From Candidatus Iainarchaeum sp. (lineage in GTDB: Archaea; Micrarchaeota; Micrarchaeia; Anstonellales; Bilamarchaeaceae): a DNA stretch of 64,000 nt. Below, piece after piece: positions 33,916 to 49,951 of the stretch. The position numbers were made by a program, and so were the translations under genes. The first letter of the stretch is position 1, and every line of letters starts with the position of its first letter. Below the pieces are notes generated by a model that had not been told where the DNA came from, made no database searches, and saw only the letters and a list, made by a program, of their open reading frames with translations. The stretch is taken from contig JAQTME010000005.1 of NCBI GenBank assembly GCA_028714535.1, positions 2,781 to 66,780 of the forward strand, in the 5' to 3' direction.

Positions 33916-33972
33916 GGATTTCTTTTTGTAAAGAATGTATTAAAATGGCTATTCTTCAAGCGGCGGGGCCCT

Positions 33973-35427
33973 TCACTTCAGCGCTGCCTTTACCAGCTTT
34001 GCGGGTATCCTGGTCTCATGGCCCGGGCGGATGAGCGCCTTTTCCCTGAATTCCGTGTTGAGGATCCTGGCCGAGAGTTCCTTGATGTCAAGCTGCGCTG
34101 TTTTCGAATCAGGCGAAGACCATACCTCGGTCGTTTTCGGCCGCGAGACGTTCATATCATAACCTATGACGTGCATCTCCAGATAGCTCGAATCGTCCAG
34201 GATGGTGAGCATGAACGCGTTGGCCAATGCAGTGCTCCGCTTTTGGAAGATGGAGGACATGCTGCGGAGCAGGCCTTCAGGCGTGTTTATCTCTCCCATG
34301 GAGGGCTTGAATTCACCCTTCCCTGTCATCGTGACTGTCGGGGTGAATGCGTCCAGTCGCCTTCCCAACGCAGCCTTGGTCTTCTGGAGGAGGATGACGT
34401 TGGTCGTCTGGTCCATCTTCTGCTTCACGCGCTCTGCATCGCCTACGCCGGCGGCCCTGAGCTCCTGGAGGCTCAGCGTCCTTGTCATGAGCGTGCCTTC
34501 TGTCTTGATCTCGAAGCCGAAATCCTGCACCTGGTTCTCGAAGACATGCGTGCGCCAATAGTCGCAGGGCAGGGAGATGAGGGCTGTGCCTCCATCGACC
34601 AGGAGCCGGTTCGCCTCGTTGACGGCGCTCACCAGGGATTCCTGGGGGATGCGGTGGCAGAACTGGAGCAGGGCCAGGGTTTCAAACCTGGCAGTGGGCT
34701 CTGCCATGACCTCCGGCCTCGTGAATTCATGCGCCCTGATGAAGCTGCGGCTCATGCCGATGTCGAGCATGGCTGCGGCCCTTCCGAGCGGCTCAGGATA
34801 GAAGGAGACCTCAAGGACCTTCCTGTTTTCGAAGGTGTCACGCAACTGCCTGAGGAGGCCGAGGGCCTCCCTGAAGACGCGCGTGTTCGGCAGCCTCCGC
34901 CTGATGCTCTCCACGAAGGATGGCGCCTGCACGTCGTGCTCCACCTCCAGCGCGTTCATCTGGTCCTCTGTAAGGCCGCGCTTGAGGTACATGGCTTTCC
35001 TGAGTTCAGGGTTCGCTTCGATGCGTTCTCCGATAGAATTATTGCCATACGGAAGAGGGCCTTTGCCTGCTTTGCTGAGATTGAAGGGATTTGGGACACC
35101 GTCAAAAGAGTTGATGGCATCCAGGAGTATGTTGCCAAGGCGCTTATTTTTTGCGATGAGGGCTTTTCCTTCCAAGTTATTCCACTCGGTGCCGGAGACA
35201 AACTTGTCAAAGACGTCACGGGGGCACGTTTCGATGAATGTTACGCTACGCTTTTCAAGAGCCCGTTTGAGGGTTGGATTTGCTTCGATGTGGCCCTTAA
35301 CAAGGGGCCGATAGTACGGGAGAGGGCCGTTGCGGTTTTTGCTGAGATTGGTGGGATTTGGGACGCCTTCGTAGGACTGGATCGCCAGGAGTATCTCGGC
35401 ATCTATGCGTGAGTAGTCTTTTGGCAT
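33973..35427 (-). CDS. Hypothetical protein with duplicated N-terminal repeat and methyltransferase-like central domain
   Basis: Two copies of I..F/Y.GVPNP.NLSK...GPLPY....I...IEANP.L. KVLEVS...EANRLLVDGGTALISLP resembles a class I MTase core. Confidence 0.7.
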   Translation of the reverse strand: MPKDYSRIDAEILLAIQSYEGVPNPTNLSKNRNGPLPYYRPLVKGHIEANPTLKRALEKRSVTFIETCPRDVFDKFVSGTEWNNLEGKALIAKNKRLGNILLDAINSFDGVPNPFNLSKAGKGPLPYGNNSIGERIEANPELRKAMYLKRGLTEDQMNALEVEHDVQAPSFVESIRRRLPNTRVFREALGLLRQLRDTFENRKVLEVSFYPEPLGRAAAMLDIGMSRSFIRAHEFTRPEVMAEPTARFETLALLQFCHRIPQESLVSAVNEANRLLVDGGTALISLPCDYWRTHVFENQVQDFGFEIKTEGTLMTRTLSLQELRAAGVGDAERVKQKMDQTTNVILLQKTKAALGRRLDAFTPTVTMTGKGEFKPSMGEINTPEGLLRSMSSIFQKRSTALANAFMLTILDDSSYLEMHVIGYDMNVSRPKTTEVWSSPDSKTAQLDIKELSARILNTEFREKALIRPGHETRIPAKLVKAALK

Positions 35428-35549
35428 TTATACCGTTATAGTCTATGGGGATAACTGTTTAAATAAGTGCGCATTCGCGGCTTGCGGCGCCTTCAAGGGC
35501 ACAACACCCGGAACAGAAAACCGTGCTTCCGCTGAAACGGCGGGGTAAA

Positions 35550-36119
35550 TCACCTACAGCCTAATAGACCGCAACCCCCTGTGGCCTCCTGGATAAATGC
35601 GCCAATACCGCTGGCCGTGGCCGGCGCCACCACGAAAATGAGGGAAGATAGCAGGGCCAATACGGCCATCATCAGCGGGGTGAAAAGAAGGGCGGCAATC
35701 AGGGAGTTCCAACCGCTGGTTTCGGCATAATACTTCCGGCAAAGATAAACCGCGATGAGCAGCGGCGCCAGAATAAGAGCCAAGCCCGCGATTATCGCGC
35801 CCCCTTCAATGTCGCCGATGACCTGGCCCAATCCGAGGGAGATGATGGCGAAGGCGATGGCGCAGGAGATTGCCAGCATCGAATTGATTGCTGCCACCGG
35901 AACGGAGATTTCCGCCAGGCGTTTTTTGAGGCTGCCCTTTTTTTCTTTGCGCCACAGGGCGATCGCAGCAACGGACAGGATGAGCGATGCGATGACGGCC
36001 CCGAGGAAGTCCATTGCAAAAAATAGCAGGGCGTATGCTTCAGCTGCATCGTTCGGACCTGCGAAAGCAACCCCGCAAAGCGATACAAGAATCGCGAATG
36101 CGATGCGCGCTGGTTTCAT
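35550..36119 (-). CDS. Hypothetical multi-pass membrane protein
   Basis: About 5 hydrophobic helices. Confidence 0.65.
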   Translation of the reverse strand: MKPARIAFAILVSLCGVAFAGPNDAAEAYALLFFAMDFLGAVIASLILSVAAIALWRKEKKGSLKKRLAEISVPVAAINSMLAISCAIAFAIISLGLGQVIGDIEGGAIIAGLALILAPLLIAVYLCRKYYAETSGWNSLIAALLFTPLMMAVLALLSSLIFVVAPATASGIGAFIQEATGGCGLLGCR

Positions 36120-36204
36120 ACGGTGTTTTTTCGTCTCCAGTTTAAATTATTTGCGTTCAGGCCGCGGAGATATGTATTTATTCCTGATGCCGCTAAATAC
36201 AGGC

Positions 36205-36999
36205 ATGGCTGATTTTGGGAGTCTGGTGTGCTGCGGGGGGGCATTCGTCATGATCGGCATCCCGCTCCTCTCCATGTTCATACGCGTCATATACGACTAC
36301 CAGAAGGGCCTTGTCCTGACGCTGGGGAAATATTCAGGCATGCGGGGCAGCGGGCTCCAGCTCATCATACCCGGCATTCAGGACATGAACGTCGTGGACA
36401 TGCGCATACAGACCATAGACATACCGAAGCAGGAGGTGCTCTCCAAGGACAACGTGAGCGCCTTCATCAACGCCGTGGTCTATTTCAGGATAACCAACCC
36501 CGAGGCGGCCATATTCAAGGTGCAGGACTACCGCGCGGCGGTGTTCCAGCACGCCCAGACCGCGATACGCGACGTCGTGGGGAGCAGGACGCTCGACCAG
36601 CTGCTGACCGACAGGAAGTCCATAGCCGATTCCATCTCCACGGTGGTGGACAAGGACGCCAAGGAATGGGGCGTCGACATAAGCGGCATAAAGATACAGG
36701 ACATCGGGCTGCCGGACTCCATGAAGAAGGCCATGGCGAGGCAGGCCCAGGCCGAGAGGGAGAAGCGCGCGGCGATAATCATATCCCAGGGCGAGAGCAT
36801 GGCCGCGGACAAGCTCGCCGCTGCCGCGAAGGTGCTGAGCGAGTCGCCCGGGGCATTGCACCTGAGGACGCTGCAGATGATATCCAGCGTGGCGGCGGAC
36901 AAGACGAACATAATGAACTTCGTGCTGCCCATAGAGGGCGTGCAGGTGTCCGGGAGAGAGGACGCGGCGGCAAAGCCGGCTAAGAAGGCACAGGTGTAG
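36205..36999 (+). CDS. SPFH/band 7 (stomatin-like) protein
   Basis: N-terminal TM, QEVLSKDNVS, AQTAIRDVVG, AMARQAQAEREKRA, ALHLRTLQ. Confidence 0.93.
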   Translation: MADFGSLVCCGGAFVMIGIPLLSMFIRVIYDYQKGLVLTLGKYSGMRGSGLQLIIPGIQDMNVVDMRIQTIDIPKQEVLSKDNVSAFINAVVYFRITNPEAAIFKVQDYRAAVFQHAQTAIRDVVGSRTLDQLLTDRKSIADSISTVVDKDAKEWGVDISGIKIQDIGLPDSMKKAMARQAQAEREKRAAIIISQGESMAADKLAAAAKVLSESPGALHLRTLQMISSVAADKTNIMNFVLPIEGVQVSGREDAAAKPAKKAQV

Positions 37000-37002
37000 C
37001 TC

Positions 37003-37695
37003 ATGGTATTCTCAATCATAAACCAGTACGAGAAGGGCGTGCGCTTCGTATGGGGCAGGTACGACGCGGTCGTCGGCCCGGGCTTCGTGTGGAACATCCC
37101 GCTGTACCATAACATCCGCACGCTCGACATGCGCACCAAGACCATACCCATCCCGCCGCAGGAGGCGATGACCAAGGACAACGTGCCTGTGAAGATAACC
37201 GCGGTGGTGTACTACAGGATAGTCGACCCGCTCAAGGTGGTCATGGCCATAGTCGACTACAATTTCGCGATATCGCAGTACGCGCAGACGGCCGTGCGCG
37301 ACGTAGTCGGCAACAACGAGCTGGATTTCGTGCTCGCGGACAGGGACAAGATAGCCGAGGAGATAGAGAAGCTCGTGGACGAGGAGACCAAGGGCTGGGG
37401 GCTCGACGTTTCTGCCATTAAATTGCAGGACATCGAGCTGCCCGAGGACATGAAGCGGGCCATGGCACGCCAGGCCGAGGCCGAGAGGGAGAAGCGGGCG
37501 ACGATAATACTCAGCGAGGCGGAATTCCAGTCCTCGAACAACTACGCTGACGCAGCGCGCAAGCTGTCGAAGATAGAGGGCGCCCTGCACCTTCGCACGT
37601 TGCAGACTCTCGCCACCAACGTCTCGTCAGAGGACTCGCCGACGCACCTCTGGATGCTTCCGACCCAGATAATGAAGTTCTTCGAGAAGAAATAG
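37003..37695 (+). CDS. Second SPFH/stomatin-like protein lacking the N-terminal membrane segment
   Basis: QYEKGVRF, QEAMTKDNVP, AQTAVRDVVG, AMARQAEAEREKRA. It starts directly at the SPFH core. Confidence 0.9.
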   Translation: MVFSIINQYEKGVRFVWGRYDAVVGPGFVWNIPLYHNIRTLDMRTKTIPIPPQEAMTKDNVPVKITAVVYYRIVDPLKVVMAIVDYNFAISQYAQTAVRDVVGNNELDFVLADRDKIAEEIEKLVDEETKGWGLDVSAIKLQDIELPEDMKRAMARQAEAEREKRATIILSEAEFQSSNNYADAARKLSKIEGALHLRTLQTLATNVSSEDSPTHLWMLPTQIMKFFEKK

Positions 37696-37696
37696 C

Positions 37697-37777
37697 TCAT
37701 TCTTCAAGCGGCGGGCAATAGGACAGGAACGAGAGCAAGAAGACGAAGATGCCTAATGCAAGGGAAACTGACACTGC
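37697..37777 (-). pseudogene. Possible 3' remnant of a membrane-protein gene at the island's left edge
   Basis: In frame after the ATPase TGA the sequence reads AVSVSLALGIFVFLLSFLSYCPPLEE-stop. Confidence 0.35.
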
Positions 37778-39979
37778 TCAAATTTTAGCATTGGCGGCAG
37801 TTTTTGACAGTGATCTAAGTGTCACAACGACAACATTTTTGAGTCCTGCCAAAGCCGTTTCGTAGCGTTTTTTCTGCTTTTTGTTTATGACAACGACGAT
37901 GACCGCCCCATAGCCCTGGGCAAACCTCTTTCTAACCTGTGAAAGGAATTGATCTAGCTTACTTACGCCGGTTTCGACTTCTATTGCGATTTTTTCGTTG
38001 AAAATAAGGTCGGGGTTGCCCCAGCTATTTAGAATCTTGACCGAACCGATTTTGTTGAGTTCGTTGCAGGTCTTTTCAATAAGGATTTTATGGAAACTGG
38101 TTTCCTGACGTGAGGGGCTGGGAAGTTCATAGAATATTTCAACGCCATAAGGGATTTCCACGGGTTCATACTGGATAACCTTGCCCTCTTTTATGAGACC
38201 TTGTAGATACATCCACGCATGCCTGGGGGTACAATTAAGCTTCAGATGGATAGTAGTAGTTGTTAACGCTCCAGTTTCTTTCAACAACTGCAAAATCTTC
38301 TCCTTTTGAGGGACGTGGGGTATGACTGGCGCGCCGTCCAACACTTCTAGAGGGGATATCTCTGGCTCTTTGGTTTTGGAGGGTAGATTAGACTGGGGGC
38401 GTGGAAATTCACCGGCCAGTGTAATTTTGATTATAGAGTAATGATTGTGCGGGCCTATCAGCAGTGCCTCGCCCTTCCTGAGCCCATTCATGACCGATTG
38501 CAGCAACCCTGGAACTATCCCCGTCATGCGCTCCAAAACGGCCATATCAGCGCCTGAAGGCGTCCTGAAGCAGATGATGTTGCCGAAATTGGCTGAAAAC
38601 CCCGGCGGGAAGTCCGTCAGGTTCTGCGATGCGACGATGAGCCTGCCGTCGAACTTGCCTGATTCCCTAGCTATGCGCACGGTGCTGGTCTCGCAGCCCT
38701 TTTCCGAAAGGAACCGGGTATTGAGCCGGTGTGCCTCGTCTATGACAATGTTCGTCGGCTGCCTTGCCTCGATGAGAAGAGCCAGATAGCGGCGCAGGAT
38801 ACTTTCGGCGTAGAAATCAGCAGCATCCCTGTCGCGTATGCCCGAGAAGTCAAAGATTACGTTTCGGTTTCCCTTAGTGAATTGCCATAGCGCATTTATT
38901 CCTTCGGCATAGCGAGCCAATTTTTCTAGACGAAGGGACAACCCTGTGAGCCGGTCTTTATCTGTGAAGGACTTGGCAGTCGCCGCATCCCTGTCTATAC
39001 TAGCAAGTGCAGCTGCCTGATTCTGGTATTCTTCGAGTTTATTCTTCAAGATGGCGAGTTGGACCTCGCCGGTGGCTTCAAAAGCTACCAAAAACGCATC
39101 TACGAAATCCGAAACGATATTTTCAACTTTTTCGTCCGGATAGTTGGGGGCCAGAGGATTGTAATCCCGAGCATCAACCACAACAAATCCATGATCAGTC
39201 AGGAAACGGTACTCCCCGTGGTAGTCCAGGATGGCATTGCCACGGCCTTCTTTCGTAACGGCCTTATAGTGGTTTCGCAGATACAACCAAAGCCAGCCGG
39301 AGATGGCAAGGCTCACAACGATATCCAGCACCCAGCCTGCATACACGTCCGTCTGGGTCATAGGTCCAAACTGGAGCAGGTATATGACAAGCATAATCGG
39401 TGTGATCAGCATCGCCACAAGCACAAAAAAGACAACCAGTGGAATCAGATGAGGTACGGTCGAAAGTAATAACAGCCGCAGAGCGTCCGAAGATGACGTA
39501 TTTCCCAGCAGTTTCAGGAGGAGGGTTTTCACTGTGCTACTCTTGCCAGTCTGGCTCCCTCCTATTACAAGGATGTGTGGGCTTGAACTTTTCGTGTCAA
39601 GGGTTATTTTTCGGCCTGCAATGTACCTACTGAACTTCCAGCCGTCGTCCGTATGCTCGAATCTACCCAGCTCTTGGGCAACCTGGAGACCCTGCGAGGA
39701 GTAAAAATGGCTTGAAGCATGCCACAACAACCATGACAACGCAGTAAGTAGGATGGCAGGGATAATGGCTATAATCAGAAAAATAGGGAAGCATAAGCAC
39801 ATGCTAGGCTGGATAGCGGGAGTGGGGGAAAAAATGAAAAGCAGGATGATCGAAACAGCGTAAAACACGAAAAACAGCAGGCCCCACCTACCGACCCTTA
39901 TCGGCTTGCCAGGTCTGTTGCCGTGGACTGGAGATGAGCGAGGTTTGAAAACGTGGAAGTACATATCTTGAATACGCAT
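37778..39979 (-). CDS. Membrane-bound HerA/VirB4-like ATPase fused to wHTH and PD-(D/E)xK-like domain
   Basis: PHILVIGGSQTGKS (Walker A), ILDYHGEY, IVIDEAH (Walker B), IVASQ. Hydrophobic helices occur at the N-terminus and inside the ATPase. C-terminal FH...PDLIFNEKIAIEVETG. Confidence 0.8.
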   Translation of the reverse strand: MRIQDMYFHVFKPRSSPVHGNRPGKPIRVGRWGLLFFVFYAVSIILLFIFSPTPAIQPSMCLCFPIFLIIAIIPAILLTALSWLLWHASSHFYSSQGLQVAQELGRFEHTDDGWKFSRYIAGRKITLDTKSSSPHILVIGGSQTGKSSTVKTLLLKLLGNTSSSDALRLLLLSTVPHLIPLVVFFVLVAMLITPIMLVIYLLQFGPMTQTDVYAGWVLDIVVSLAISGWLWLYLRNHYKAVTKEGRGNAILDYHGEYRFLTDHGFVVVDARDYNPLAPNYPDEKVENIVSDFVDAFLVAFEATGEVQLAILKNKLEEYQNQAAALASIDRDAATAKSFTDKDRLTGLSLRLEKLARYAEGINALWQFTKGNRNVIFDFSGIRDRDAADFYAESILRRYLALLIEARQPTNIVIDEAHRLNTRFLSEKGCETSTVRIARESGKFDGRLIVASQNLTDFPPGFSANFGNIICFRTPSGADMAVLERMTGIVPGLLQSVMNGLRKGEALLIGPHNHYSIIKITLAGEFPRPQSNLPSKTKEPEISPLEVLDGAPVIPHVPQKEKILQLLKETGALTTTTIHLKLNCTPRHAWMYLQGLIKEGKVIQYEPVEIPYGVEIFYELPSPSRQETSFHKILIEKTCNELNKIGSVKILNSWGNPDLIFNEKIAIEVETGVSKLDQFLSQVRKRFAQGYGAVIVVVINKKQKKRYETALAGLKNVVVVTLRSLSKTAANAKI

Positions 39980-39988
39980 AGTTACTGT

Positions 39989-40126
39989 TTATTTAGCTAA
40001 AATATTATTAACCACAGCTAAGCGACCCAAGTGGGCTAATTGGTTTATTCCAATCAGCTGGATTGAGCCGTCTTTTATCTCAGCCATGTTTCGGGAATCG
40101 CCCATAACCACGGTGGTTTTTGCCAT
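39989..40126 (-). pseudogene. Truncated N4/N6 DNA methyltransferase relic
   Basis: MAKTTVVMGDSRNMAEIKDGSIQLI matches the usual beta-class MTase N-terminus (GDSR.M.E..D.S..LI), breaks off just before the expected VTSPPY motif and stops after 45 codons. Confidence 0.7.
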
Positions 40127-40280
40127 GGTTGAAGTTATTTCTCAGGGGGCTATTTTATGCGAAGTGCCCAATTGGGCAGAAAATGACCAATCTAAGAAGA
40201 TCTGTTTGACGAATCAAGCAGAAACTTAAAAAAAATCAATAAGATTAAGAAGTTGATAGACGTAAATCGAATCTGTTTCA

Positions 40281-41234
40281 ATGATACCCGATACGATATA
40301 TAACAAAATAATTAAACGAATTCGAGTTGACGACAGTTGGATTAAAAAAAATCTCGTTGAGCATGGTGTAAGCACCGCGTCTAAAGTCAAAATAAGGATA
40401 TACAGTATTGCATTTTCTGGAAATCAAGAGGAATATCTTGGTTTTATAGGCACCATCTTGGGGAAGATATCAGATTATGTTTTCAGTCAAAAGGAAATAA
40501 AAAAAATTAAAAAGGAAGGGGGGAGTCCGGATATAAACGCCGCATCTTTCTTTGGAGATATTGACCCCCAGAAAGATGGTAAATACGGAGAATTCATACT
40601 GTTTTTGTTTGTGGAGGCAGTCCTAAAGTGCCCTATGATTGCGCATAAGATTCAAACATACAACCCCAATGATCAAGTTAAAGGTAGCGATGGATTGTTT
40701 TTTGGAAAGTATGATGGCCAACAAGCGTTACTAATCGGAGAAGCAAAAATGGGATTGGATAATTCAACGTACATTAACAACGCGCTTACGTCACTTGATA
40801 GGTTTTATATAAGTCATGGCGGAGGATCAACTTTAGACCATGAGTTGTTAGTGACAAGAAGTAATATATCCACTGATTTTTCTAAAGATGAATTAGATTA
40901 TTTATATGAAGTGCTTAGCCCTGGATCTCAAGAATATAAAAACAATGTCAAGGTACATCCGATATTAATTATATACAATGATACAAACCTAAATCGAATA
41001 GAAACCGAATCTAAAAACAAAGCTGAAGCTGAACAAAAAGTTAAGGGAATCATGCCCGGGTTATTTGAAGAACTAACAAAAAAAGTCAAAACAAAGATAG
41101 CTGAAAACCATACTGAGTTATCAAAAGTTTATCTCGACTTCTTTTTTATCCCGACTAGCGACGTAACCCGACTTAGAGGAGAATTTTATCGAAAATTACA
41201 CGGTGCAGCGTATAAAGAAGGGAAGACTGATTAA
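40281..41234 (+). CDS. hamA: Hachiman nuclease subunit HamA (DUF1837)
   Basis: GKYGEFILFLFVE...PMIAHKI...VKGSDGLF...LIGEAK, coupled to a downstream SF2 helicase. Confidence 0.85.
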   Translation: MIPDTIYNKIIKRIRVDDSWIKKNLVEHGVSTASKVKIRIYSIAFSGNQEEYLGFIGTILGKISDYVFSQKEIKKIKKEGGSPDINAASFFGDIDPQKDGKYGEFILFLFVEAVLKCPMIAHKIQTYNPNDQVKGSDGLFFGKYDGQQALLIGEAKMGLDNSTYINNALTSLDRFYISHGGGSTLDHELLVTRSNISTDFSKDELDYLYEVLSPGSQEYKNNVKVHPILIIYNDTNLNRIETESKNKAEAEQKVKGIMPGLFEELTKKVKTKIAENHTELSKVYLDFFFIPTSDVTRLRGEFYRKLHGAAYKEGKTD

Positions 41235-43871
41235 ATGACCGATACATATGATTCGGCATATGAACATGCAACATTGAATGATCTCCTGGATAAATTAATT
41301 ACTAATCAATTCTACCGTGATTTGAAAATTAATGCTAGAGAAACTATCAGCGACGAAGAATTACTTAAAGCTGCTTGGCTCGCTTCAATTCTTTCTTTAA
41401 GTGAAGAGGATAAACACAAATCCAAGGCTTTGGCCTTTGCAGTCTTAGCTTATTTGCAAAAAACTAAGGATTCCAGGTTCACAAAGCTATGTTTTGTTAT
41501 TATCTCCAGAGTGGGGAACGCCCCGTTAAGTGATCATCTAAAAGAGTTCAACGATATCGATCGTTTGATTCAATTTGGTTTTGACAACATTTTAAGCATG
41601 GAATTGAAATTAGAAAACGACCTTTCAAAATTAGATGTGGGAGATAAAACGATTCGGGTTTCTGAATACCAACATAACATCTGGGAATTGATAAATGAAA
41701 AACAGTACATAACCATCTCTGGGCCAACTTCTTCGGGAAAATCATTTATTATCCAAAATTATTTAGCAAAAACTTTTAGGGGGCAGGAGGAATACAAGTG
41801 TATCTACGTGGTGCCAACTAAAGCATTAATATACGAGGTTACTTCTAAACTAAAAAATAGACTAAGAGACTGTGGGGTGAGAATAAAGAATGCCATTAAA
41901 CCTGGGAATGAAGAACAATTTAGCAAAAAAGAGATATTAGTACTTACCCCCGAACGATGCTTGAAATTACTGGAAGGTGAGGGTAAGAATTTTGTTCCAA
42001 ACATTGTATTTTTTGATGAAGTTCAAAAAATTGAAGACGGAGAAAGAGGCGTCTTATTTGAGTATATTCTAAATAGTCTAGCGGTAAATTGGAAAAACAC
42101 AAAATTCATAGTTGCAGGGCCATATTTAAGCGGGTTAGAGGGGACTTTCAAGGATTTAAGTGGTTTTGATGCTCAAGAAATAAAAACCAAATTCGCTTCA
42201 GTTTTTCAAATAATCGCAACTTTACAGTATTATAAAAGAGAAAGAAAAATTTCAGTAATTCTAAAAAGCCCTTCTGGGAGATATATCGAAAAGGACATTC
42301 CTTCCGATAAAAATTTATATGCCAAAGTAAAAAAGGATAAAGGATCTGCAATTTCACAGATTATACGTGAACATTTTAACGATAGTTTTAATTTGATCTA
42401 TTCATATAAGCGAAGCAGCGCAGAGGGTTGGGCAATAAAAATCTCAGATGCCGTAATCTTGCCTGAGGGGTATCACGAGAATGAAAAAATAAGGGAGCTT
42501 AACGAGTATTTGTCTAAAGAAGTCCATCCAAACTACTCTTTAGTTCGATGCCTAGGAAAAAGAGTAGCTTTTCACCATGCTTGCGTGCCGGAAATTGCAC
42601 GTTTGGAATTAGAGGATTTGTATCGTGAGGGACTGATTACTAACATCGTATGTACAACTACCTTACTTGAAGGAATAAATCTTCCAGCAGAAAACATTCT
42701 GGTAATCACCGATAAAAAAGGTGAAAATAATCTTTTAGAAAATTTTGAATTTGGGAATTTAATTGGTCGTGCGGGCAGATTGGATTCACACATTTATGGT
42801 TCTGTTTACTGTATTGAGCTAAATGATGACCAGTGGGCACTGGAGAAAATTAAAACTAACCCAGAGAAAACACTTATTCCTGTGACCACAAAAGCGCTGA
42901 CTGAAATGAAAACCGATTTAATCGAAGCTATTGACAAATCACCAACCCAAATAAAAAACAAAACGGTAAGGTATACGCTTTGTTTGTTGAGACATAAAAT
43001 GTTAAGAAATAGGAGTGACTTTTCGGAATACTTAACAAGTAAGGGATTGGATCAAATGGAGGTGCGTGAGATAAGCGAAAAGATTCAATCGACGTTAAGC
43101 GGGTTAAAAATCCCAGAAACTGTTTTAAAATTAAATCCGACGATAGACCCGCTACTACAAGAACAATTATACCTCCGAATTAAAAACGAAGGAACTCGGG
43201 AATGGTTAATCACTTCGAACCAAAGAAAGTTTCGGCATATAAGTTCAGACAGAGCGCTACCTTTTAGCGATCGGACTTTTTACGGGCAATTCGAAAGTGT
43301 CGCGGATCGGCTGGATGAAATATTTGATATACGTGACGCAAATAATCAAAATGATGAAGATGAAGGCTATTATTTTACGATTACCATGAGGCAGATAACC
43401 CGGTATGCAATCCCTTGGCTACGGGGGTATCCGTATAAAAGTTTAATTGAAAAGGATATTGAAAGTACAAAAATAAAAAGAAAAAAGAACGAACTGTCCG
43501 ATACAGAAATTGATACGATTATCCGAAACGTAATCGATAATGTTAATGAATATGTACGATTTGAACTTGTAAAATATTTTAAACTATGGTCAGATCTCTT
43601 GAAATATATCCTAGAAGAAGAAACGGTTGGACAAAAAAAGTATTATTATCTCTCATTGGATCAGATGCTAGAGTTCGGGTCAGTTAACCCAGCAGTTCTT
43701 GAGCTTATGTCTGAAGGGATTAATCGTTCGGTAGCGCATGAAATTGCCAAACAGATACCTAAGGGCTACAAGGGCTCTGCATTGAAATGGATGAATGAGA
43801 ATCCGCAACTGAAGTTATCCCCGTTATATATACGGCATTTAAAAAATCAGGGATTTTATAGGTTAAATTGA
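41235..43871 (+). CDS. hamB: Hachiman helicase HamB (Ski2-like DEAD/H)
   Basis: SGPTSSGKS, VVPTKAL, LTPER, FFDEVQ, VAFHHA, CTTTLLEGINLPA, NLIGRAGR. Confidence 0.85.
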   Translation: MTDTYDSAYEHATLNDLLDKLITNQFYRDLKINARETISDEELLKAAWLASILSLSEEDKHKSKALAFAVLAYLQKTKDSRFTKLCFVIISRVGNAPLSDHLKEFNDIDRLIQFGFDNILSMELKLENDLSKLDVGDKTIRVSEYQHNIWELINEKQYITISGPTSSGKSFIIQNYLAKTFRGQEEYKCIYVVPTKALIYEVTSKLKNRLRDCGVRIKNAIKPGNEEQFSKKEILVLTPERCLKLLEGEGKNFVPNIVFFDEVQKIEDGERGVLFEYILNSLAVNWKNTKFIVAGPYLSGLEGTFKDLSGFDAQEIKTKFASVFQIIATLQYYKRERKISVILKSPSGRYIEKDIPSDKNLYAKVKKDKGSAISQIIREHFNDSFNLIYSYKRSSAEGWAIKISDAVILPEGYHENEKIRELNEYLSKEVHPNYSLVRCLGKRVAFHHACVPEIARLELEDLYREGLITNIVCTTTLLEGINLPAENILVITDKKGENNLLENFEFGNLIGRAGRLDSHIYGSVYCIELNDDQWALEKIKTNPEKTLIPVTTKALTEMKTDLIEAIDKSPTQIKNKTVRYTLCLLRHKMLRNRSDFSEYLTSKGLDQMEVREISEKIQSTLSGLKIPETVLKLNPTIDPLLQEQLYLRIKNEGTREWLITSNQRKFRHISSDRALPFSDRTFYGQFESVADRLDEIFDIRDANNQNDEDEGYYFTITMRQITRYAIPWLRGYPYKSLIEKDIESTKIKRKKNELSDTEIDTIIRNVIDNVNEYVRFELVKYFKLWSDLLKYILEEETVGQKKYYYLSLDQMLEFGSVNPAVLELMSEGINRSVAHEIAKQIPKGYKGSALKWMNENPQLKLSPLYIRHLKNQGFYRLN

Positions 43872-43929
43872 TGCGTGTGAAACGAGTTATTCGTCAAACG
43901 AAATATTGCTTTTAATTATTTGCAGTATG

Positions 43930-46320
43930 TCAACTAAACGGGAGCGAAGACGCAGCGCTAATGGCCTGATAGAAACTCAAATGTGGTTTTACCTCAGTAC
44001 TGGGGATGAGCTTGTATTCCCACTTATCTCCAGTTTCGCGACTAACATCGGCACACCAGTCTAGAGCTGCTTTCGCTTTCTTCATAACAATTGAACTTTT
44101 ATCGCTAAGATTGATCTCGTCAGCGCGTTTTATCTCAACAATATAATGATGGTTCTTTCTACATTCAACGAAAAAGTCTGGGTTGTAATCCTTAAGTCCG
44201 ATATTTTCATAGGTAATGGGTGATTGCCGTAGTGGTGGTTTTACCCACTTTACAACCTCGCCATCTTTCTCTAAAATGTCGGAAAAAAGCTTCTCTTCTC
44301 TACTATCGAAAATATTCTTTCGGAAAATACTTTTTTGATAGCCTGCAATAACCCTGTCCACACACTCTTGTTGTGTTGATGCCGCTTCACGAGCAATTTC
44401 TGGTTTATCCTTACTGATTTTTCTCTGGAAGACTCTGAACTCTATTGCACTCTCGTTAGTAACATAACGGTTACGTGTAACCCCTGTCTTGGCGATAGAG
44501 ATCTGATTCGATATGTCCACCATGATTTTTCTAAAATGGTTGACTAAAATACGGTTTATGTCCTCTGCACTATGCTGTTTTCTCAACAGTGCAACATACT
44601 CATTAGCAACCCGTCTTGCAAACTCCAGATCCATTTTGTCATTTACATTCAATTCTGTAACGTACCTGAGTATTTTTCTAAAAAGAAATTCCTCCGGTGA
44701 ACCATATTTTCCAATTTCTGGTTTAATGATGTTGATGAGCTCATCTTCTTTGCCGATTATCCCGAGTTGGGTCCCAATGATCTCTACGTCCTGTGCTACG
44801 AGTTTATCATGGCTTAGCTTAGGATGAAATTGAGCCCTGAAATCCTTAATTTCGGTTGTGCCGGCAAAGCTAACCTGGGGGATCCTCATTTTAGATTCTG
44901 GTGTGCCGTCAGGTGAAATGATACTAGTGACCAACTCTGGCTTCTCCTCATCGGCCGTCTGAACTATAATTTCTTCTCCATACTCTTTTTTTGCCTTTTG
45001 TACTATTTCTTCATACTTTTCGTGGGATATGACTTCGAAAGTGTCAATTTCTTCATTGCCAGTTCGTTGATTAGTAAACGGCAATCTGAGACCTCGTCCT
45101 AGTGTTTGTTCAGCCAGTATCTCGCTCGCAGTTTCACGCAATGGGATTAGGGTATACAAATTTTTCACGTCCCAGCCTTCTTTGAGCTTGTTTACGTGGA
45201 TAACAATTTCAGTAGCGTCTGGATTGTTTAATCGTTCAAGTTCTAGAAACTTCTGGATGTCATCTTCATTTTCAGTTTTCGAATGTATCTCTATTGTTTT
45301 GGTTGCATAGTATGGGAACTCGGTACCGATTAATCTTCTTAAACCAGAAGCATGTTCTGTATCTTTGGCACTAATCAGTACGAATGGCGTTACTAACGGA
45401 AGGGCATTCTGTTCGCAGTACTCTCTGATGAGTTCTCGCTTTCTCTCATGCTGCCTTAAGCCCCGTGCAATCTTGGCTCTCTCGAAAGTAGACTCATCGA
45501 AAGATGAGAGTTCATCGTTCCTCCACGCAATGACCCGAGGTATTTTGACATATCCTTTGCTTATTGCATCCTTCAGTCTGAACTCATGCAGAATATTCTT
45601 GAATCTTTTAGGAGTCGCACCGGTAGTTATTGGAGTGGCTGTGAATTCCAGGCAGATTCTTGGCTTGAGATCATTGACAGAATTAAACGAAACCTCAGCT
45701 TTATATCGATGAGATTCGTCCAGCATGACCGCCAACTTACGTTCTGTAAGGAGCTTATACTGACTTAGGCCAAGTTCTTCATCTGGTGCATAGAACTTTC
45801 GTGCATCTTTTTTTGCGGCAAACTTCTCAACGTTTATTATGAATATGTTTACTTCATTCTCATCGAATCTGTAAAGAGCACGTTTGAAATCGTCCGGAAG
45901 TATGACATTGTATCTAAACATGTCAGAAAGCCCAAAAAATAGGTATCTGTCTGTTTTGTTGTTTGGGTCGAGTTCGGTCTTAAGTTTCTCGAACAATGTT
46001 TCTCCTTTAACTACTATGAGAAAGTTCTTGAATTCCTGCTTTTTGTTGAGATAGTAGATGCATGAACCCATCAAGCGCGTTTTTCCTACACCTGTAGCGA
46101 GGGCAAATGTATAGGATGGGAACTGAGTTTCAAACTTGAATCCGGGTACCGCGCTGACCTGTGAGATTGTCTCTATTCTTTCTAATGATTCTTTGCTATA
46201 GTCAAATTCATAGAAGTTGAATTGGTCGCATATTGTAGCGAGTTTTTTTAGTGAAACCTCCTGCGGCTGCCGCCTACTGAGACCCATCTGGGACACTATC
46301 CTATCGACTAGCTCACTCAT
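43930..46320 (-). CDS. res: Type III restriction endonuclease subunit (Res)
   Basis: LATGVGKT, DESH, EFTATP, VNKLKEGWDVKN, EQTLGRGLRLP, C-terminal YNPDF...IVEIK nuclease. Confidence 0.88.
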   Translation of the reverse strand: MSELVDRIVSQMGLSRRQPQEVSLKKLATICDQFNFYEFDYSKESLERIETISQVSAVPGFKFETQFPSYTFALATGVGKTRLMGSCIYYLNKKQEFKNFLIVVKGETLFEKLKTELDPNNKTDRYLFFGLSDMFRYNVILPDDFKRALYRFDENEVNIFIINVEKFAAKKDARKFYAPDEELGLSQYKLLTERKLAVMLDESHRYKAEVSFNSVNDLKPRICLEFTATPITTGATPKRFKNILHEFRLKDAISKGYVKIPRVIAWRNDELSSFDESTFERAKIARGLRQHERKRELIREYCEQNALPLVTPFVLISAKDTEHASGLRRLIGTEFPYYATKTIEIHSKTENEDDIQKFLELERLNNPDATEIVIHVNKLKEGWDVKNLYTLIPLRETASEILAEQTLGRGLRLPFTNQRTGNEEIDTFEVISHEKYEEIVQKAKKEYGEEIIVQTADEEKPELVTSIISPDGTPESKMRIPQVSFAGTTEIKDFRAQFHPKLSHDKLVAQDVEIIGTQLGIIGKEDELINIIKPEIGKYGSPEEFLFRKILRYVTELNVNDKMDLEFARRVANEYVALLRKQHSAEDINRILVNHFRKIMVDISNQISIAKTGVTRNRYVTNESAIEFRVFQRKISKDKPEIAREAASTQQECVDRVIAGYQKSIFRKNIFDSREEKLFSDILEKDGEVVKWVKPPLRQSPITYENIGLKDYNPDFFVECRKNHHYIVEIKRADEINLSDKSSIVMKKAKAALDWCADVSRETGDKWEYKLIPSTEVKPHLSFYQAISAASSLPFS

Positions 46321-48136
46321 TAGAATCACCATCCTTGTTGCTCAGTTGGTCCGGCATCCTTCGTACCTCGACATTCTTTGGCAGTTTTAGCTTTGAAGTG
46401 TGTGCATAGCAGTAGATGATCAACTTTTGGTCTTCATCCACTTCCTTAGTCAGATGGTTTAGATATTCTTGAGTTACGTAAAACTCAGTCACGTGAGCGA
46501 ACGTCATTCCACGCTTTCCGTGCAGAACTCGTTTTCCCTTACTCATCAGCTTGAAACCTTCAAGTTTGCAGATGGCCAGGATCAGGTCACCGTTATTGTA
46601 CTTCGGATTTATGCGCTGTATTCCAAGTTCTTTGTCGGTAATCACAAGTGGATCTCCCAGTTCGCAGTAGGCGAAGCCTCCGCCGCCTTTCCAGTTGACC
46701 TGCTTGCTTATGCCCGTTTGATCTTCTCCCGAAACTACTCGTCTTAGGCGAGGCTTGCAGAGTGTTTCTGCGTGTTTACCTATCTCAATAGTCAACCATC
46801 GCCTACCTAGCTTATGTGCAACTGCAGCAGTAGTACCAGAACCGGCGAATGAGTCTAGAACGAGTTCTCCAGGTTCTGAAGCCATCTCAATTATTCTTTT
46901 AAGAAGCATTTCTGGTTTTTTGCTATTCTTAAATTTTACCTCCCCCTCTTGAGCTATTCCGGCATAATTGATATCATCCCACAGGTCTGTAATCAGTTCT
47001 GTTGGCCCCGTAACCCCGTCTATTGTCCTTATTTTATTGCTATAAAAAGAAAGCGCTCCACCATTTAGAATGTAGATATCATCATGCTCTTTCCTCGGAA
47101 TAATTAATATCCTATCCGGTTGTTTTTTTGATTCGGCAATCTTTTGTTTAATCAGTTCTGAGGGTTTATGCGGGTCTCTAACACTAACAATCCGGGGTGC
47201 ATTTTCCAATGCGAACGTTCCAGCCAAACTTGCGCGAATTGATTTCCATTCACTCCCCCATGTATTTTTAGCATCTTTCCACGAATGAAATCCTAACTTC
47301 TCTAACACTAAATCGTTTATCCTCTTAAATTTCCATTCCTCTGGTTTAGCCTCTGGATTCAAGATAAATAAATCATAATTTTCATCATAATTTACAAGCC
47401 TATACTGCGGTTTAAATTTATGCAATTCTTTGTTCTTGCAGTACATGAGTATGTAGTCTGTAACTGTAATTGGCCCTGGATTAATCGTCTTGAATCCGGC
47501 AGGGGATGCTCTCTTTTCTGAGATGATTTGAACGAAATTTTTCCTTAGAAAAACATCATTCATGAGCAGAATCAAATACCCCAATTCACGATTATCTATA
47601 TGAACAAAAATAACGCCATCCTGAGAGAGAAGTTTTTTCAATATCTCTAATCTTGGCCGCATCATGGAAAGCCAGGTGGATTGTTCTAAATTGTCTTCAT
47701 AGTGCTCAAATGCAGCGCCAGTATTGAAAGGCGGATCTATATAGATAAGTTTAACTTCCCCTGCAAAATCTTCTTCTAAAGCTTTCAGGGCCAATAAGTT
47801 ATCCCCCCTAATGAGCAGGTTTTCTGATTGTATGGGTGCATCACGTCTTACCCATTCTTTTTTTTCTGAGTTATAAACACAGTTACTCTGTCCGATAATT
47901 TCTCGCTGTCTAATGATCCTGAGTGGTATGTCTTTATTTCTTTTCCACACGGGCTGCCCATTATAGATATCCCAAAATACATAATCCTTACTCGGCCACA
48001 CCAGTTCAATGCGGCCATTCAGCTTGTTATCTTCGTACTTTGGAGCTGTCCGTCCCCCATCTGATTCAGAATTTTCCAAGTCACTACGCTCTGTTTCTTC
48101 AGCTTTGACCTCCTCAGCCTTCTTCGTTACCATCAT
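46313..48136 (-). CDS. mod: Type III adenine DNA methyltransferase (Mod)
   Basis: LIRGDNL, IYIDPPFNTG (motif IV), KKPEMLLKRII, VLDSFAGSGTT (motif I). Overlaps the res start by 8 nt. Confidence 0.92.
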   Translation of the reverse strand: MMVTKKAEEVKAEETERSDLENSESDGGRTAPKYEDNKLNGRIELVWPSKDYVFWDIYNGQPVWKRNKDIPLRIIRQREIIGQSNCVYNSEKKEWVRRDAPIQSENLLIRGDNLLALKALEEDFAGEVKLIYIDPPFNTGAAFEHYEDNLEQSTWLSMMRPRLEILKKLLSQDGVIFVHIDNRELGYLILLMNDVFLRKNFVQIISEKRASPAGFKTINPGPITVTDYILMYCKNKELHKFKPQYRLVNYDENYDLFILNPEAKPEEWKFKRINDLVLEKLGFHSWKDAKNTWGSEWKSIRASLAGTFALENAPRIVSVRDPHKPSELIKQKIAESKKQPDRILIIPRKEHDDIYILNGGALSFYSNKIRTIDGVTGPTELITDLWDDINYAGIAQEGEVKFKNSKKPEMLLKRIIEMASEPGELVLDSFAGSGTTAAVAHKLGRRWLTIEIGKHAETLCKPRLRRVVSGEDQTGISKQVNWKGGGGFAYCELGDPLVITDKELGIQRINPKYNNGDLILAICKLEGFKLMSKGKRVLHGKRGMTFAHVTEFYVTQEYLNHLTKEVDEDQKLIIYCYAHTSKLKLPKNVEVRRMPDQLSNKDGDSNE

Positions 48137-48223
48137 GAACCCCTACGAACAATTATTCTTCCAATCACACTCTTCTTGCGGCCATACGAACCACGGACCC
48201 CAGATATTATTGTTCCATTGTTT

Positions 48224-48553
48224 CTAGCGTACCTCTCTACTTTCTTCATTGCTTTTATTTACCTCATTATAGAGCTGTTCTAATCGGCATAGCATTTTGG
48301 CCTGTGTTTCGGAGGGAATCCAAAATTTCCACACGTCATTTCCAACTGAGTTTTTAAACACGATATAGAAGGATTTTGTGTTATCTGATTTTTTTATTGT
48401 AACAACTTTTAGATCTGGCGTATCAAATATTACGGATTTCTCATTTGCTGTTATCCCATGTTTCCTTTCATGGTGAGTGGGTTTTCCGATAAATTCTAAT
48501 ACTTCTTCGAAACTTTCGAAAATCCATTCGCCCGCTATTTTCATATCAACCAT
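48224..48553 (-). CDS. Hypothetical protein upstream of mod
   Basis: 109-aa AT-rich ORF co-oriented with mod-res. Confidence 0.6.
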   Translation of the reverse strand: MVDMKIAGEWIFESFEEVLEFIGKPTHHERKHGITANEKSVIFDTPDLKVVTIKKSDNTKSFYIVFKNSVGNDVWKFWIPSETQAKMLCRLEQLYNEVNKSNEESREVR

Positions 48554-48851
48554 AACCCATTTGCTCGAATTAATGCAAATTGTAATATCAGACCTAGTTT
48601 TATATGGTTCTCTTCTCAGAACAGCACTCGGTAACGGAGGTCAAAACGGGGTTCTGTTCTGACCTGAATTTGACGTAGAGTTCTTAAGGGAAGAATTGAA
48701 CTTCCAGCTCAGGCCTGAAACGGGTCTGTTCCGAACCGAAGGATCAGTTCTGAGCATTAATCGATTATCGGTTGGTTTGTCCGGTCCGCCTTCGAGTTTC
48801 CTACGTTTCCATATCGCCAGCAATAAATATGCTTTGCCTCAAACCGTCATC

Positions 48852-49610
48852 ATGGAAATCGTATTCCTCGGCACGGGCGGGGGCCGCATAAACCTCATAA
48901 AGCAGATACGGGGGACGGGCGGCTTCAGGATAAACTCCCGCTCGGCCAACATCCACGTGGACCCGGGCCCGGGCGCGCTCATCCATTCAATCGAGCAGAG
49001 GCAGAACCCGCTCGAGCTCGACGCCGTGATAGTGACGCACAACCACGTCGACCACATCTCGGACTCCATGGTGCTCATCGAGGCCATGACCAACTACGGG
49101 CTGAAGAAGAGGGGCGTGCTCATAGCGAGCAGGAACGCCATAGAGGAGAAGGGCGTGAGCGCCTACCACCAGTCGCGCGCGGGGACGGTCTACGCTGCGC
49201 AATACGGCGAGAGGAAGACGTTCACGAACGAGAAGGGCTCGTTTGAGATTGAAAGTTTCCCGATGAGGCACGAGGAACCGACGACGTTCGGGTTCAAGCT
49301 CTACCTGGACGGCGGCGTGCTCGGCTACATAAGCGACACCGAACTGACCGAAAGCCTTGGCAGGGACTTCGCCGGCTGCGACCTGCTCATAATAAACTGC
49401 ATAAAGCCCGAGGGCGACCCGTACAAGGGCCACCTCAAGACCGCGGAGGTCGCCACGATACTCAAGGCGGCGAGGCCCAAGGCGTGCATAATGACGCACA
49501 TGGGCCTGAAGATGCTCAAGGCAGGGCCGTCCGCAGAGGCTGAGAAGATAGAGAAGGAGAGCGGCGTGAAGACCACGGCGGCCCGCGACGGGATGAAGGT
49601 CACGGTCTGA
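48852..49610 (+). CDS. MBL-fold metallo-hydrolase
   Basis: FLGTGGG, VDPGPG, THNHVDH, YISDT, THMG. Host-like codon usage resumes here. Confidence 0.92.
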   Translation: MEIVFLGTGGGRINLIKQIRGTGGFRINSRSANIHVDPGPGALIHSIEQRQNPLELDAVIVTHNHVDHISDSMVLIEAMTNYGLKKRGVLIASRNAIEEKGVSAYHQSRAGTVYAAQYGERKTFTNEKGSFEIESFPMRHEEPTTFGFKLYLDGGVLGYISDTELTESLGRDFAGCDLLIINCIKPEGDPYKGHLKTAEVATILKAARPKACIMTHMGLKMLKAGPSAEAEKIEKESGVKTTAARDGMKVTV

Positions 49611-49921: not shown

Positions 49922-49922
49922 G

Positions 49923-49930: not shown

Positions 49931-49951
49931 ATCCCGAAGCGATAATATAAC

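What the first reader, a model, noticed from the sequence alone, without database searches (positions are those of the whole stretch)
40281..48136. Hachiman plus Type III RM stacked convergently in a DPANN-like archaeon
Seen: hamA-hamB (+) and mod-res (-) converge with a gap of under 60 nt, both strongly AT-rich relative to the host. Known: Hachiman is a DNA-damage-sensing nuclease-helicase abortive system characterised in bacteria. Inference: a horizontally acquired layered defence in which RM cleavage products might trigger Hachiman. An archaeal symbiont example is worth testing.
Basis: partly seen in the sequence, partly recalled or inferred. Interest (0 to 1): 0.62.

Follow-up and report, generated by a model that had tools for sequence, protein, structure and literature searches.

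The report
Imported Hachiman plus restriction defence island
A tiny symbiotic archaeon (Micrarchaeota) carries a foreign, AT-rich stretch of DNA with two well-known, apparently intact anti-virus systems side by side (Hachiman and a Type III restriction-modification system); I found no sign that they form a new combined machine.

Summary
hamA-hamB (40281-43871, +) and mod-res (48136-43930, -) are four intact genes that converge on a 58-nt gap. They lie in a low-GC island (GC3 0.32-0.41, against 0.77-0.87 in host genes).

- **Gene identity:** all four match PADLOC profiles strongly (HamA 6e-97, HamB 6e-276, Mod 9e-123, Res 9e-84) and keep their catalytic motifs.
- **Host:** it is a Micrarchaeota (DPANN) archaeon.
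- **Foreign origin:** four related Micrarchaeota loci (80-90% nucleotide identity in the flanks) lack the whole 33957-48814 segment. Independent contigs at even depth span both GC junctions.
- **No conserved pairing:** the two systems differ in composition. None of 5 close HamB relatives, nor the nearest Res relative, shows the pairing. Only 3 of 80 named HamB loci have a Type III pair within 10 kb, each oriented differently.
- **Not unique to this archaeon:** the nearest named HamB relatives are other DPANN archaea. The Aenigmatarchaeota copy sits beside a Type I RM system.

Hachiman in archaea and a Hachiman+RM island are already published. The idea that restriction cuts trigger Hachiman is compatible with published biochemistry but gets no specific support here.

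Verdict: an ordinary two-system defence island, a new instance of known kinds. Interest is low.

The parts
40281..41234 (+). hamA, the Hachiman effector nuclease (DUF1837, PD-(D/E)xK core D137...E154-x-K156)
   Evidence: Pfam PF08878 at 1.5e-27, 97.4 bits against a cut-off of 25. PADLOC HamA1 PDLC00154 at 6e-97, covering 12-311 of 313 profile positions. D137, E154 and K156 are invariant in 7 HamA sequences. GC3 is 0.318.
41235..43871 (+). hamB, the Hachiman Ski2/Hel308-like SF2 sensor helicase; its ATG directly follows the hamA stop
   Evidence: PADLOC HamB1 PDLC00185 at 6e-276, covering 2-870 of 871 profile positions. Best solved relative is the helicase chain of Hachiman complex 9wh1_B at 5.6e-41; 8zue_B and 8vx9_B also hit. 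GPTSSGKS, DEVQ and GRAGR are present, and these columns are invariant in 37 homologues. GC3 is 0.331.
43872..43929 (.). 58-nt convergent intergenic gap between the hamB and res stop codons
   Evidence: Sequence read. GC is 0.33. No significant hairpin on either strand, z = -0.07 and -0.35. The T-rich tract gcTTTTaaTTaTTTg could serve as an archaeal oligo-T terminator; that is an inference.
43930..46332 (-). res, the Type III restriction subunit (N-terminal SF2 ATPase, C-terminal PD-(D/E)xK endonuclease)
   Evidence: PADLOC REase_III PDLC03648 at 9e-84. Pfam ResIII at 1.2e-19, SWI2_SNF2, and TnsA-like/RE_endonuc at residues 666-762. Motifs ATGVGKT, DESH, TAT, QTLGRGLR and C-terminal NPD...VEIK read directly. 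No sequence match to any solved structure. GC3 is 0.414.
46313..48136 (-). mod, the Type III beta-class N6/N4 DNA methyltransferase with a central variable recognition region; its end overlaps the res start
   Evidence: PADLOC MTase_III PDLC03636 at 9e-123 and Pfam N6_N4_Mtase at 1.4e-38. Best solved relative is EcoP15I Mod, 4zcf_A, at 1.2e-21. DPPF comes before FAGSGTT. Residues about 246-381 do not align with the nearest relative, as expected of a target-recognition domain. GC3 is 0.405.
48224..48553 (-). orf109, an island-encoded small protein of unknown function, upstream of mod on the same strand
   Evidence: GC3 is 0.345. No hit in Pfam, PADLOC, NCBIfam (one weak hit below cut-off) or PHROGs. 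88 homologue clusters, 26 at E<=1e-10. AlphaFold mean pLDDT is 94.6, with no significant fold match. Absent from the 93 other loci held.
39980..48814 (.). Low-GC foreign island (hamAB, res-mod, orf109 and their intergenic DNA)
   Evidence: GC profile. Homology to relatives resumes at 48815-48821. No tRNA gene, integrase or flanking direct repeat.
33957..48814 (.). Whole strain-specific variable segment, absent from the syntenic relatives L005-L008
   Evidence: blastn and tblastn against L005-L008. The same slot holds an S8 peptidase plus a 125-aa ORF in L005, a 709-aa unknown protein in L008, and nothing in L006/L007.
37778..39979 (-). Neighbouring HerA/FtsK-like ATPase gene of intermediate composition, next to the island but not part of either defence system
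Evidence: Pfam FtsK_SpoIIIE and DUF87; PADLOC mad8 at 2.7e-17 and HerA. GC3 is 0.56.

Best explanation
The region is a horizontally acquired defence island in a variable chromosomal slot of a Micrarchaeota (DPANN) archaeon. It holds two independent, complete, canonical immune systems.

1. A type I Hachiman system (HamA nuclease plus HamB helicase). By analogy with the characterised E. coli complex, HamB holds HamA in check while surveying intact DNA. It releases the nuclease when it loads on damaged, nicked or 3'-ssDNA-ended DNA, and DNA in the cell is then degraded indiscriminately (abortive infection).

2. A Type III restriction-modification system. Mod methylates a short asymmetric site on host DNA, and the Mod-Res complex uses ATP to cleave unmethylated invading DNA.

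The two systems probably arrived separately, or from different low-GC donors. The Hachiman copy belongs to a lineage circulating among DPANN archaea. They sit together because defence genes accumulate in the same permissive, variable slots, not because they form one machine.

Shown here: gene identities, intact motifs, foreign composition, absence from relatives, physical linkage to host DNA, and lack of a conserved pairing. Inferred: the biochemical mechanisms (by homology), activity in this host, and separate arrival.
For: - Identity and completeness.
- Foreign composition with two distinct classes (GC3 0.32-0.33 against 0.41; the standard error, computed by hand from codon counts, is about 0.016-0.017).
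- Host is Micrarchaeota.
- Segment 33957-48814 is absent from four relatives whose flanks are 80-90% identical, and the slot holds different cargo in each.
- Even depth, with contigs spanning both junctions.
- hamA-hamB are always paired, but no Type III RM lies beside them in 5 of 5 close relatives.
- The nearest Res relative (49% identity) has mod-res and no Ham genes.
- 3 of 80 named HamB loci have a Type III pair and 3 of 80 have a Type I system within 10 kb, in varying orientations.
- The HamB clade (SH-aLRT 98) has only DPANN archaea as named members.
- The Aenigmatarchaeota copy lies beside a Type I RM system.
- Mechanism by homology: PMC12278908.
- Hachiman is widespread in bacteria and archaea: PMC13064477.
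Against: - No expression, methylation or phenotype data exist for this organism, so activity is only inferred.
- No integrase, att repeats or tRNA target were found, so the route of acquisition is unknown.
- The GC3 difference could reflect gene-specific constraints rather than different donors.
- The RM adjacency counts used only a few sequence probes, so they are lower bounds. No background rate was computed.
- Hachiman next to some RM system recurs (L014; the S. thermophilus island in PMC12322248; unchecked earlier notes). A selected partnership at the level of 'any RM' is therefore not excluded.
Confidence: 0.85

Rival explanations
1. The pair is a functionally coupled two-tier unit. Type III Res cleavage of unmethylated invader DNA creates the DNA ends or nicks on which HamB loads. 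Restriction then acts as the sensor that fires the HamA nuclease, and the pairing is selected for that reason.
For: Published biochemistry shows that nicked or cut DNA triggers HamB ATPase and HamA degradation, while intact DNA does not (PMC12278908). A native Hachiman plus type II RM island in S. thermophilus protected far better than Hachiman alone expressed from a plasmid (PMC12322248). Hachiman lies beside an RM system in at least 6 of 80 named loci and in the closest named DPANN relative. Several unchecked earlier notes report Hachiman+RM cassettes elsewhere.
Against: At this locus the systems are convergent rather than co-transcribed, and they differ in composition. Neither system's closest relatives keep the pairing. 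The RM partner, when there is one, is of varying type and orientation. That pattern is what defence-island clustering with the commonest defence system would give. Firing an abortive nuclease every time restriction succeeds would turn a survivable defence into cell death, which argues against obligate coupling (my inference). The S. thermophilus comparison differs in expression context and did not test a mechanism.
Confidence: 0.12
2. The whole low-GC block, together with the adjacent HerA/FtsK-like ATPase gene, is the cargo of a single mobile element that integrated here in one event.
For: The HerA-like gene abuts the island. HamAB relatives sit beside serine or tyrosine recombinases in L011 and L013.
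Against: There are three compositional classes (GC3 0.56, 0.32-0.33 and 0.41). No integrase, att-like direct repeats or tRNA gene were found. The variable segment also includes host-like-GC genes at 33973-37695.
Confidence: 0.2
3. The systems are silent or decaying passengers with no present function in this host.
For: There are no expression or methylation data. Codon usage is very unlike the host's (GC3 0.32-0.41 against about 0.8), which may limit translation. Published surveys report RM and multi-gene systems as under-represented in DPANN (PMC12988326).
Against: All four ORFs are full length against their profiles, without frameshifts or stops, and every catalytic motif is kept. An unexpressed toxic nuclease pair would be expected to decay. 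An active Res without an active Mod would be lethal, so intact res implies functional mod (established RM logic).
Confidence: 0.1
4. The low-GC block belongs to another organism and was joined to Micrarchaeota DNA by mis-assembly.
For: The GC shift is abrupt, and only one public run holds the sequence.
Against: An independent assembly (Logan) of that run gives contigs crossing both junctions, 99.99-100% identical and at the same depth as the flanks.
Confidence: 0.02

Closest known systems
Hachiman type I (HamA-HamB), e.g. E. coli ECOR31 HamAB (PDB 8VX9/8VXA/8VXC/8VXY; Tuck et al., Cell 2024, PMC12278908) and the solved complex 9wh1
   Same: Two-gene hamA>hamB operon. HamA is a DUF1837 protein with a D...ExK nuclease core. 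HamB is a Ski2/Hel308-like SF2 helicase with intact ATPase motifs. There is no hamC gene, so it is type I in the PADLOC sense (PMC8565338).
   Different: Sequence is distant from the solved complexes (HamB 5.6e-41 to 9wh1_B and 2.5e-13 to 8vx9_B; HamA only 2.4e-3 to 9wh1_A). HamB here is compact, at 878 aa against 1174 aa in ECOR31. The host is archaeal, and nothing has been tested experimentally.
Hachiman of other DPANN archaea: Aenigmatarchaeota MAG JAUVLW010000005.1 (L014) and Woesearchaeota MAG DUGD01000093.1 (L003/L016)
   Same: Same HamA subfamily (PDLC00154, 1e-101 in L014). HamB is 43-46% identical and falls in the same supported clade. In L014 the system also lies beside an RM system.
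   Different: The L014 partner is a Type I RM (hsdM/S/R), divergently oriented. The Woesearchaeota locus has no RM nearby.
Type III restriction-modification systems, e.g. EcoP15I (PDB 4ZCF)
   Same: mod precedes and overlaps res. Mod is a beta-class MTase (DPPF before FxGxG) with a central variable region. Res is an SF2 ATPase plus a C-terminal PD-(D/E)xK nuclease.
   Different: Res is so diverged from EcoP15I Res that phmmer finds no solved relative. It belongs to a large, mostly uncultured family: nearest relative 49% identical, named members in Omnitrophica, Zixibacteria, Pacebacteria and Nanoarchaeota at 34-37%. The recognition site is unknown.
Native 7.2-kb Hachiman + type II RM island of Streptococcus thermophilus (PMC12322248)
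   Same: Hachiman and an RM system are adjacent in a small island. That island has been shown to give strong phage resistance when integrated.
   Different: It is bacterial, the RM is type II, and the Hachiman subfamily differs. No mechanistic coupling was shown there either.

Membership tests
Hachiman (type I) | HamA carries the DUF1837/HamA domain above the curated threshold | tested here: met
   PF08878 at 97.4 bits against a cut-off of 25. PADLOC HamA1 at 6e-97 over nearly the full length.
Hachiman (type I) | HamB is an SF2 Ski2/Hel308-like helicase that matches HamB profiles over its full length | tested here: met
   PDLC00185 at 6e-276, covering 2-870 of 871 positions. Solved HamB chains 9wh1_B, 8zue_B and 8vx9_B are hit.
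Hachiman (type I) | hamA lies immediately upstream of hamB in one operon, with no hamC (DUF3223) | tested here: met
   The hamA stop ends at 41234 and the hamB ATG starts at 41235. No further Ham component was found among the neighbours scanned. The pair is conserved in all relatives examined.
Hachiman (type I) | Catalytic residues are kept: the HamA D...ExK core and HamB Walker A, DExx and motif VI | tested here: met
   D137, E154 and K156 are invariant in 7 HamA sequences. G168-K169-S170, D261-E262-x-Q264 and G511-R512-x-G514-R515 are invariant in 37 HamB sequences. I could not align directly to ECOR31 E138/K140.
Hachiman (type I) | Confers anti-virus protection by DNA-damage-triggered DNA degradation | not testable with these tools
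   Needs expression and virus challenge; known only for bacterial homologues (PMC12278908).
Type III restriction-modification | Mod is a beta-class N6-adenine/N4-cytosine MTase with motif IV (DPPY/F) before motif I (FxGxG) and a central recognition domain | tested here: met
   DPPF lies near residue 130 and FAGSGTT near residue 430. The best solved match is EcoP15I Mod at 1.2e-21. MTase_III at 9e-123. The central region is not conserved with the nearest relative.
Type III restriction-modification | Res is an SF2 helicase-like ATPase plus a C-terminal PD-(D/E)xK endonuclease | tested here: met
   ATGVGKT, DESH, QTLGRGLR and NPD...VEIK are present. REase_III at 9e-84, with ResIII and RE_endonuc/TnsA-like domains.
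Type III restriction-modification | Two-gene mod>res operon with no separate specificity subunit | tested here: met
   mod ends at 46313 and res starts at 46332 or 46320, so they overlap on the same strand. No hsdS-like gene is nearby.
Type III restriction-modification | ATP-dependent cleavage that needs two inversely oriented unmethylated sites, with hemimethylation of an asymmetric site | not testable with these tools
   Needs biochemistry or methylome data.
Single composite Hachiman-RM system (hypothetical) | Conserved co-occurrence and gene order of hamAB with Type III mod-res across relatives | tested here: not met
   0 of 5 closest HamB loci and 0 of 2 closest Res loci show the pair. 3 of 80 named loci have it, in differing orientations.

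The most novel reading that the evidence does not exclude
Hachiman and restriction-modification systems of any type may form a recurrent, selected two-tier partnership across bacteria and archaea, including DPANN symbionts. In this reading, DNA ends made by restriction on unmethylated invader DNA load HamB and release HamA. Hachiman would then act as a back-up when restriction is overwhelmed, and this Micrarchaeota island and the Aenigmatarchaeota Hachiman+Type I island would be two archaeal instances.
Probability: 0.12. Interest if true: 0.55.

Novelty: new member of a known kind. Interest (0 to 1): 0.2.

Why it matters
The result adds a clean, intact example of two multi-gene defence systems in a Micrarchaeota genome. 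Published surveys report RM, CRISPR-Cas and defence islands as under-represented in DPANN (PMC12988326, PMC12259885).

It also suggests that one Hachiman lineage circulates among DPANN archaea (Aenigmatarchaeota, Woesearchaeota and this Micrarchaeota). That is a modest data point on gene flow and virus pressure in these symbionts.

It does not reveal a new mechanism. The idea of RM-triggered Hachiman remains a generic hypothesis, better tested in tractable bacterial systems.

Tried and rejected
- **'Host might be bacterial'.** The SRP RNA passes only the Bacteria_large_SRP threshold. I rejected this reading because it scores almost the same on the archaeal model, the housekeeping genes are archaeal in type and the flank-gene homologues are Micrarchaeota.
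- **Integration signatures.** There are no tRNA genes, no convincing flanking direct or inverted repeats and no integrase.
- **Terminator hairpin in the 58-nt gap.** Not significant.
- **HamB fragment next to the nearest Res relative.** The convergent partial ORFs in L009/L010 are not HamB.
No HMM support in PADLOC or NCBIfam even at E<=10. The peptide is too short to decide.
- **'Dedicated defence hotspot'.** Cargo in the relatives' slots has no defence-profile hit apart from a generic subtilase match.
- **orf109 as an RM controller or anti-defence protein.** No family hit and no significant fold match.
- **Island-free variants or expression.** Only one landfill-metagenome DNA run holds the locus, and no alternative joint was seen.
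Full report
**Observation.** The hamB ATG follows the hamA stop directly. mod overlaps the start of res. The two operons converge on a 58-nt gap. One-kilobase GC falls from about 0.55-0.66 to 0.35-0.44 between 40 and 49 kb. GC3 makes the contrast sharper: host genes are 0.77-0.87, HamA/HamB 0.32/0.33, Res/Mod 0.41/0.41, a small extra ORF (48224-48553) 0.345, and the adjacent HerA-like gene 0.56.

**Identity and integrity.**
- HamA passes the Pfam HamA/DUF1837 model (97.4 bits, cut-off 25) and PADLOC HamA1 PDLC00154 at 6e-97.
- HamB matches PADLOC HamB1 PDLC00185 at 6e-276 from end to end.
- Mod matches MTase_III at 9e-123 and Res matches REase_III at 9e-84.
- HamB aligns best to the helicase chain of the solved Hachiman complex 9wh1 (5.6e-41). 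It keeps GPTSSGKS, DEVQ and GRAGR, and those columns are invariant in 37 homologues.
- HamA keeps D137...E154-x-K156, invariant in seven family members.
- Mod has DPPF before FAGSGTT, and its best solved relative is EcoP15I Mod.
- Res has ATGVGKT, DESH, QTLGRGLR and a C-terminal NPD...VEIK nuclease motif, although it is too diverged to hit any solved structure by sequence.

**Host.** The SRP RNA next to the island passes only the bacterial large-SRP threshold (73.3 bits against 60). It scores almost the same on the archaeal model (71.2 bits, below that model's 96.5 threshold), so it does not decide the domain. Housekeeping genes in the window are archaeal in type (CDC48/PAN-like ATPases, PyrI). 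Every named homologue of the MBL-fold gene bordering the island is Candidatus Micrarchaeota or Candidatus Bilamarchaeum (57-68% identity; unnamed ones reach 90%). NCBI taxonomy places these in Nanobdellati/Micrarchaeia, that is DPANN. This agrees with earlier, unchecked notes on the same genome.

**Foreign origin and boundaries.** Four related Micrarchaeota loci (L005 from GCA_964490215.1, L006, L007, and L008 from GCA_964647575.1) share the following with the window, at 76-90% nucleotide identity:
- the block from pyrC through TPR-AAA, enolase and ThiS to the PP-loop gene (window 25890-31263);
- a small ORF (33318-33956);
- the MBL gene (from 48815).

They lack everything in between. The strain-specific segment is therefore 33957-48814. 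Its right 8.8 kb (39980-48814) is the low-GC island. In the relatives the slot is empty (L006/L007) or holds unrelated cargo: an S8 peptidase in L005 and a 709-aa unknown protein in L008. None of that cargo has a defence-profile hit beyond a generic subtilase match. It is a general variable slot, not a dedicated defence hotspot.

I found no tRNA gene, integrase or flanking repeats, so the insertion mechanism is unknown. The island is not an assembly artefact. An independent assembly of the one public run that holds it (a landfill metagenome) yields contigs at even depth (7.5-8.8) that cross both GC junctions.

**Where the systems come from.** HamB's nearest relatives are uncultured (59, 56 and 47% identity). 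The first named ones are a Woesearchaeota MAG and Paenibacillus, and many haloarchaea follow at 33-37%. A scan of species-representative genomes found more than 555 relatives. The best was an Aenigmatarchaeota MAG (46%). In a quick maximum-likelihood tree (SH-aLRT support only), the window's HamB lies in a 17-member clade (support 98). The only named members of that clade are the Aenigmatarchaeota and Woesearchaeota copies, and a Paenibacillus clade is the next neighbour. Contigs carrying the closest relatives are low in GC (30-39%). A low-GC donor, possibly another DPANN archaeon, is therefore plausible but not proven.

Res belongs to a very large family (7,613 hits at E<=1e-20). Its nearest relative is only 49% identical, and named members (Omnitrophica, Zixibacteria, Pacebacteria, Nanoarchaeota) are at 34-37%. 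No donor can be named.

**One machine or two neighbours?** Five contexts of close HamB relatives all keep hamA-hamB, and none has a Type III RM. The nearest Res relative has mod-res but no Ham gene, and the convergent ORF beside it is not HamB. I probed 80 named HamB loci (median 22 kb held) with a Res profile and the Mod sequence. Three had an adjacent Mod+Res pair (a Pedobacter, a Chloroflexota and a Thaumarchaeota), each oriented differently from the window. Three more had a Type I system. One of these is the Aenigmatarchaeota relative, where the same HamA subfamily sits divergently beside hsdM/S/R. These counts are lower bounds, because they come from only a few probes.

The convergent orientation and the significantly different GC3 of the two operons add to the picture. 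Together they fit defence-island neighbourhood with the commonest class of defence system, not a conserved composite.

In the characterised E. coli system, nicked or cut DNA switches on HamB ATPase and HamA degradation, whereas intact DNA does not (PMC12278908). Restriction-generated ends could therefore, in principle, activate any Hachiman in the same cell, whether or not the genes are adjacent. A native Hachiman plus type II RM island of S. thermophilus protects strongly (PMC12322248). Earlier, unchecked notes of this scan list several Hachiman+RM cassettes in bacteria. The idea is therefore neither new nor specific to this locus, and nothing here tests it. Obligate coupling would also convert survivable restriction into abortive death (my inference). 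I give the coupled reading about 0.12.

**Comparison with what is known.** Both systems meet every sequence-level defining feature of their families (see the membership table). Activities cannot be tested here. Hachiman is described as widespread in bacteria and archaea (PMC13064477), and PADLOC type I is hamAB without hamC (PMC8565338). Surveys report RM, CRISPR-Cas and defence islands as under-represented in DPANN (PMC12988326; PMC12259885). A two-system island in a Micrarchaeota is therefore somewhat uncommon, but it is not a new kind of thing.

**Side observations.** orf109 (48224-48553) is island-encoded and lies upstream of mod. It belongs to an unannotated family of about 100-aa proteins (88 clusters). 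Its predicted alpha/beta fold is very confident (pLDDT 94.6) but has no significant structural match. The claimed methyltransferase relic at 39989-40126 has no statistical support.

**Verdict.** This is an ordinary, apparently intact, horizontally acquired Hachiman plus Type III RM defence island in a Micrarchaeota genome: a new instance of known kinds, of low interest.

Noticed in passing
window 48224-48553 (-): orf109 is a low-GC small ORF upstream of mod. It has no hit above any curated family cut-off, but it belongs to a real family (88 clusters at 50% identity, 26 at E<=1e-10; conserved W75, W78, P80, Q84). The AlphaFold model is very confident (pLDDT 94.6), with no significant PDB match. 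The best viral match is an unnamed protein at TM 0.63, E = 5e-3. Function is unknown.
   Followed up: partly
L014:3481-8912 (Aenigmatarchaeota MAG JAUVLW010000005.1): In the closest named relative, Hachiman lies divergently beside a Type I RM system. hsdM is split into 290-aa and 147-aa pieces with a 149-aa ORF between them, followed by hsdS and hsdR. A PDC-S13 gene and a DrmA-like fragment also lie nearby.
   Followed up: partly
window 49950-50203 (+): The SRP RNA is short (about 255 nt). It passes the gathering score only for the bacterial large-SRP model (73.3 against 60) and fails the archaeal model (71.2 against 96.5). A roughly 40-nt model segment is missing.
   Followed up: partly
window 48815-51518 compared with L005-L008: The MBL gene sits at a synteny break. 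In all four relatives a class I tRNA synthetase follows it. In the window it is followed by an 80-aa ORF, the SRP RNA and prephenate dehydrogenase.
   Followed up: no
window 31264-33317: Two tandem ORFs (31315-32271 and 32348-33259) are inserted between the PP-loop gene and orf198. In L005 those two genes are adjacent, so this is a second strain-specific insertion, with host-like GC.
   Followed up: no
window 39989-40126 (-): A 45-aa ORF at the island's left edge looks by eye like the start of a beta-class DNA methyltransferase (..VVMGDSRNMAEIKDGSIQLIG..). No PADLOC or NCBIfam model matches it even at E<=10, so it is unconfirmed.
   Followed up: yes
window 37778-39979 (-): The HerA/FtsK-like ATPase next to the island also hits PADLOC mad8 of the MADS system (2.7e-17). 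Its GC3 (0.56) is intermediate between host and island.
   Followed up: no
L009:4823-6594: In the nearest Res relative, mod is split into two ORFs (266 and 281 aa). The central recognition region does not align with the window's Mod. This could be a frameshifted or phase-variable mod, or a different specificity.
   Followed up: no
L011:7138-8721 and L013:4151-5614: Close HamAB relatives sit directly beside a serine recombinase (L011) or a tyrosine integrase (L013), which is consistent with carriage on mobile elements.
   Followed up: no
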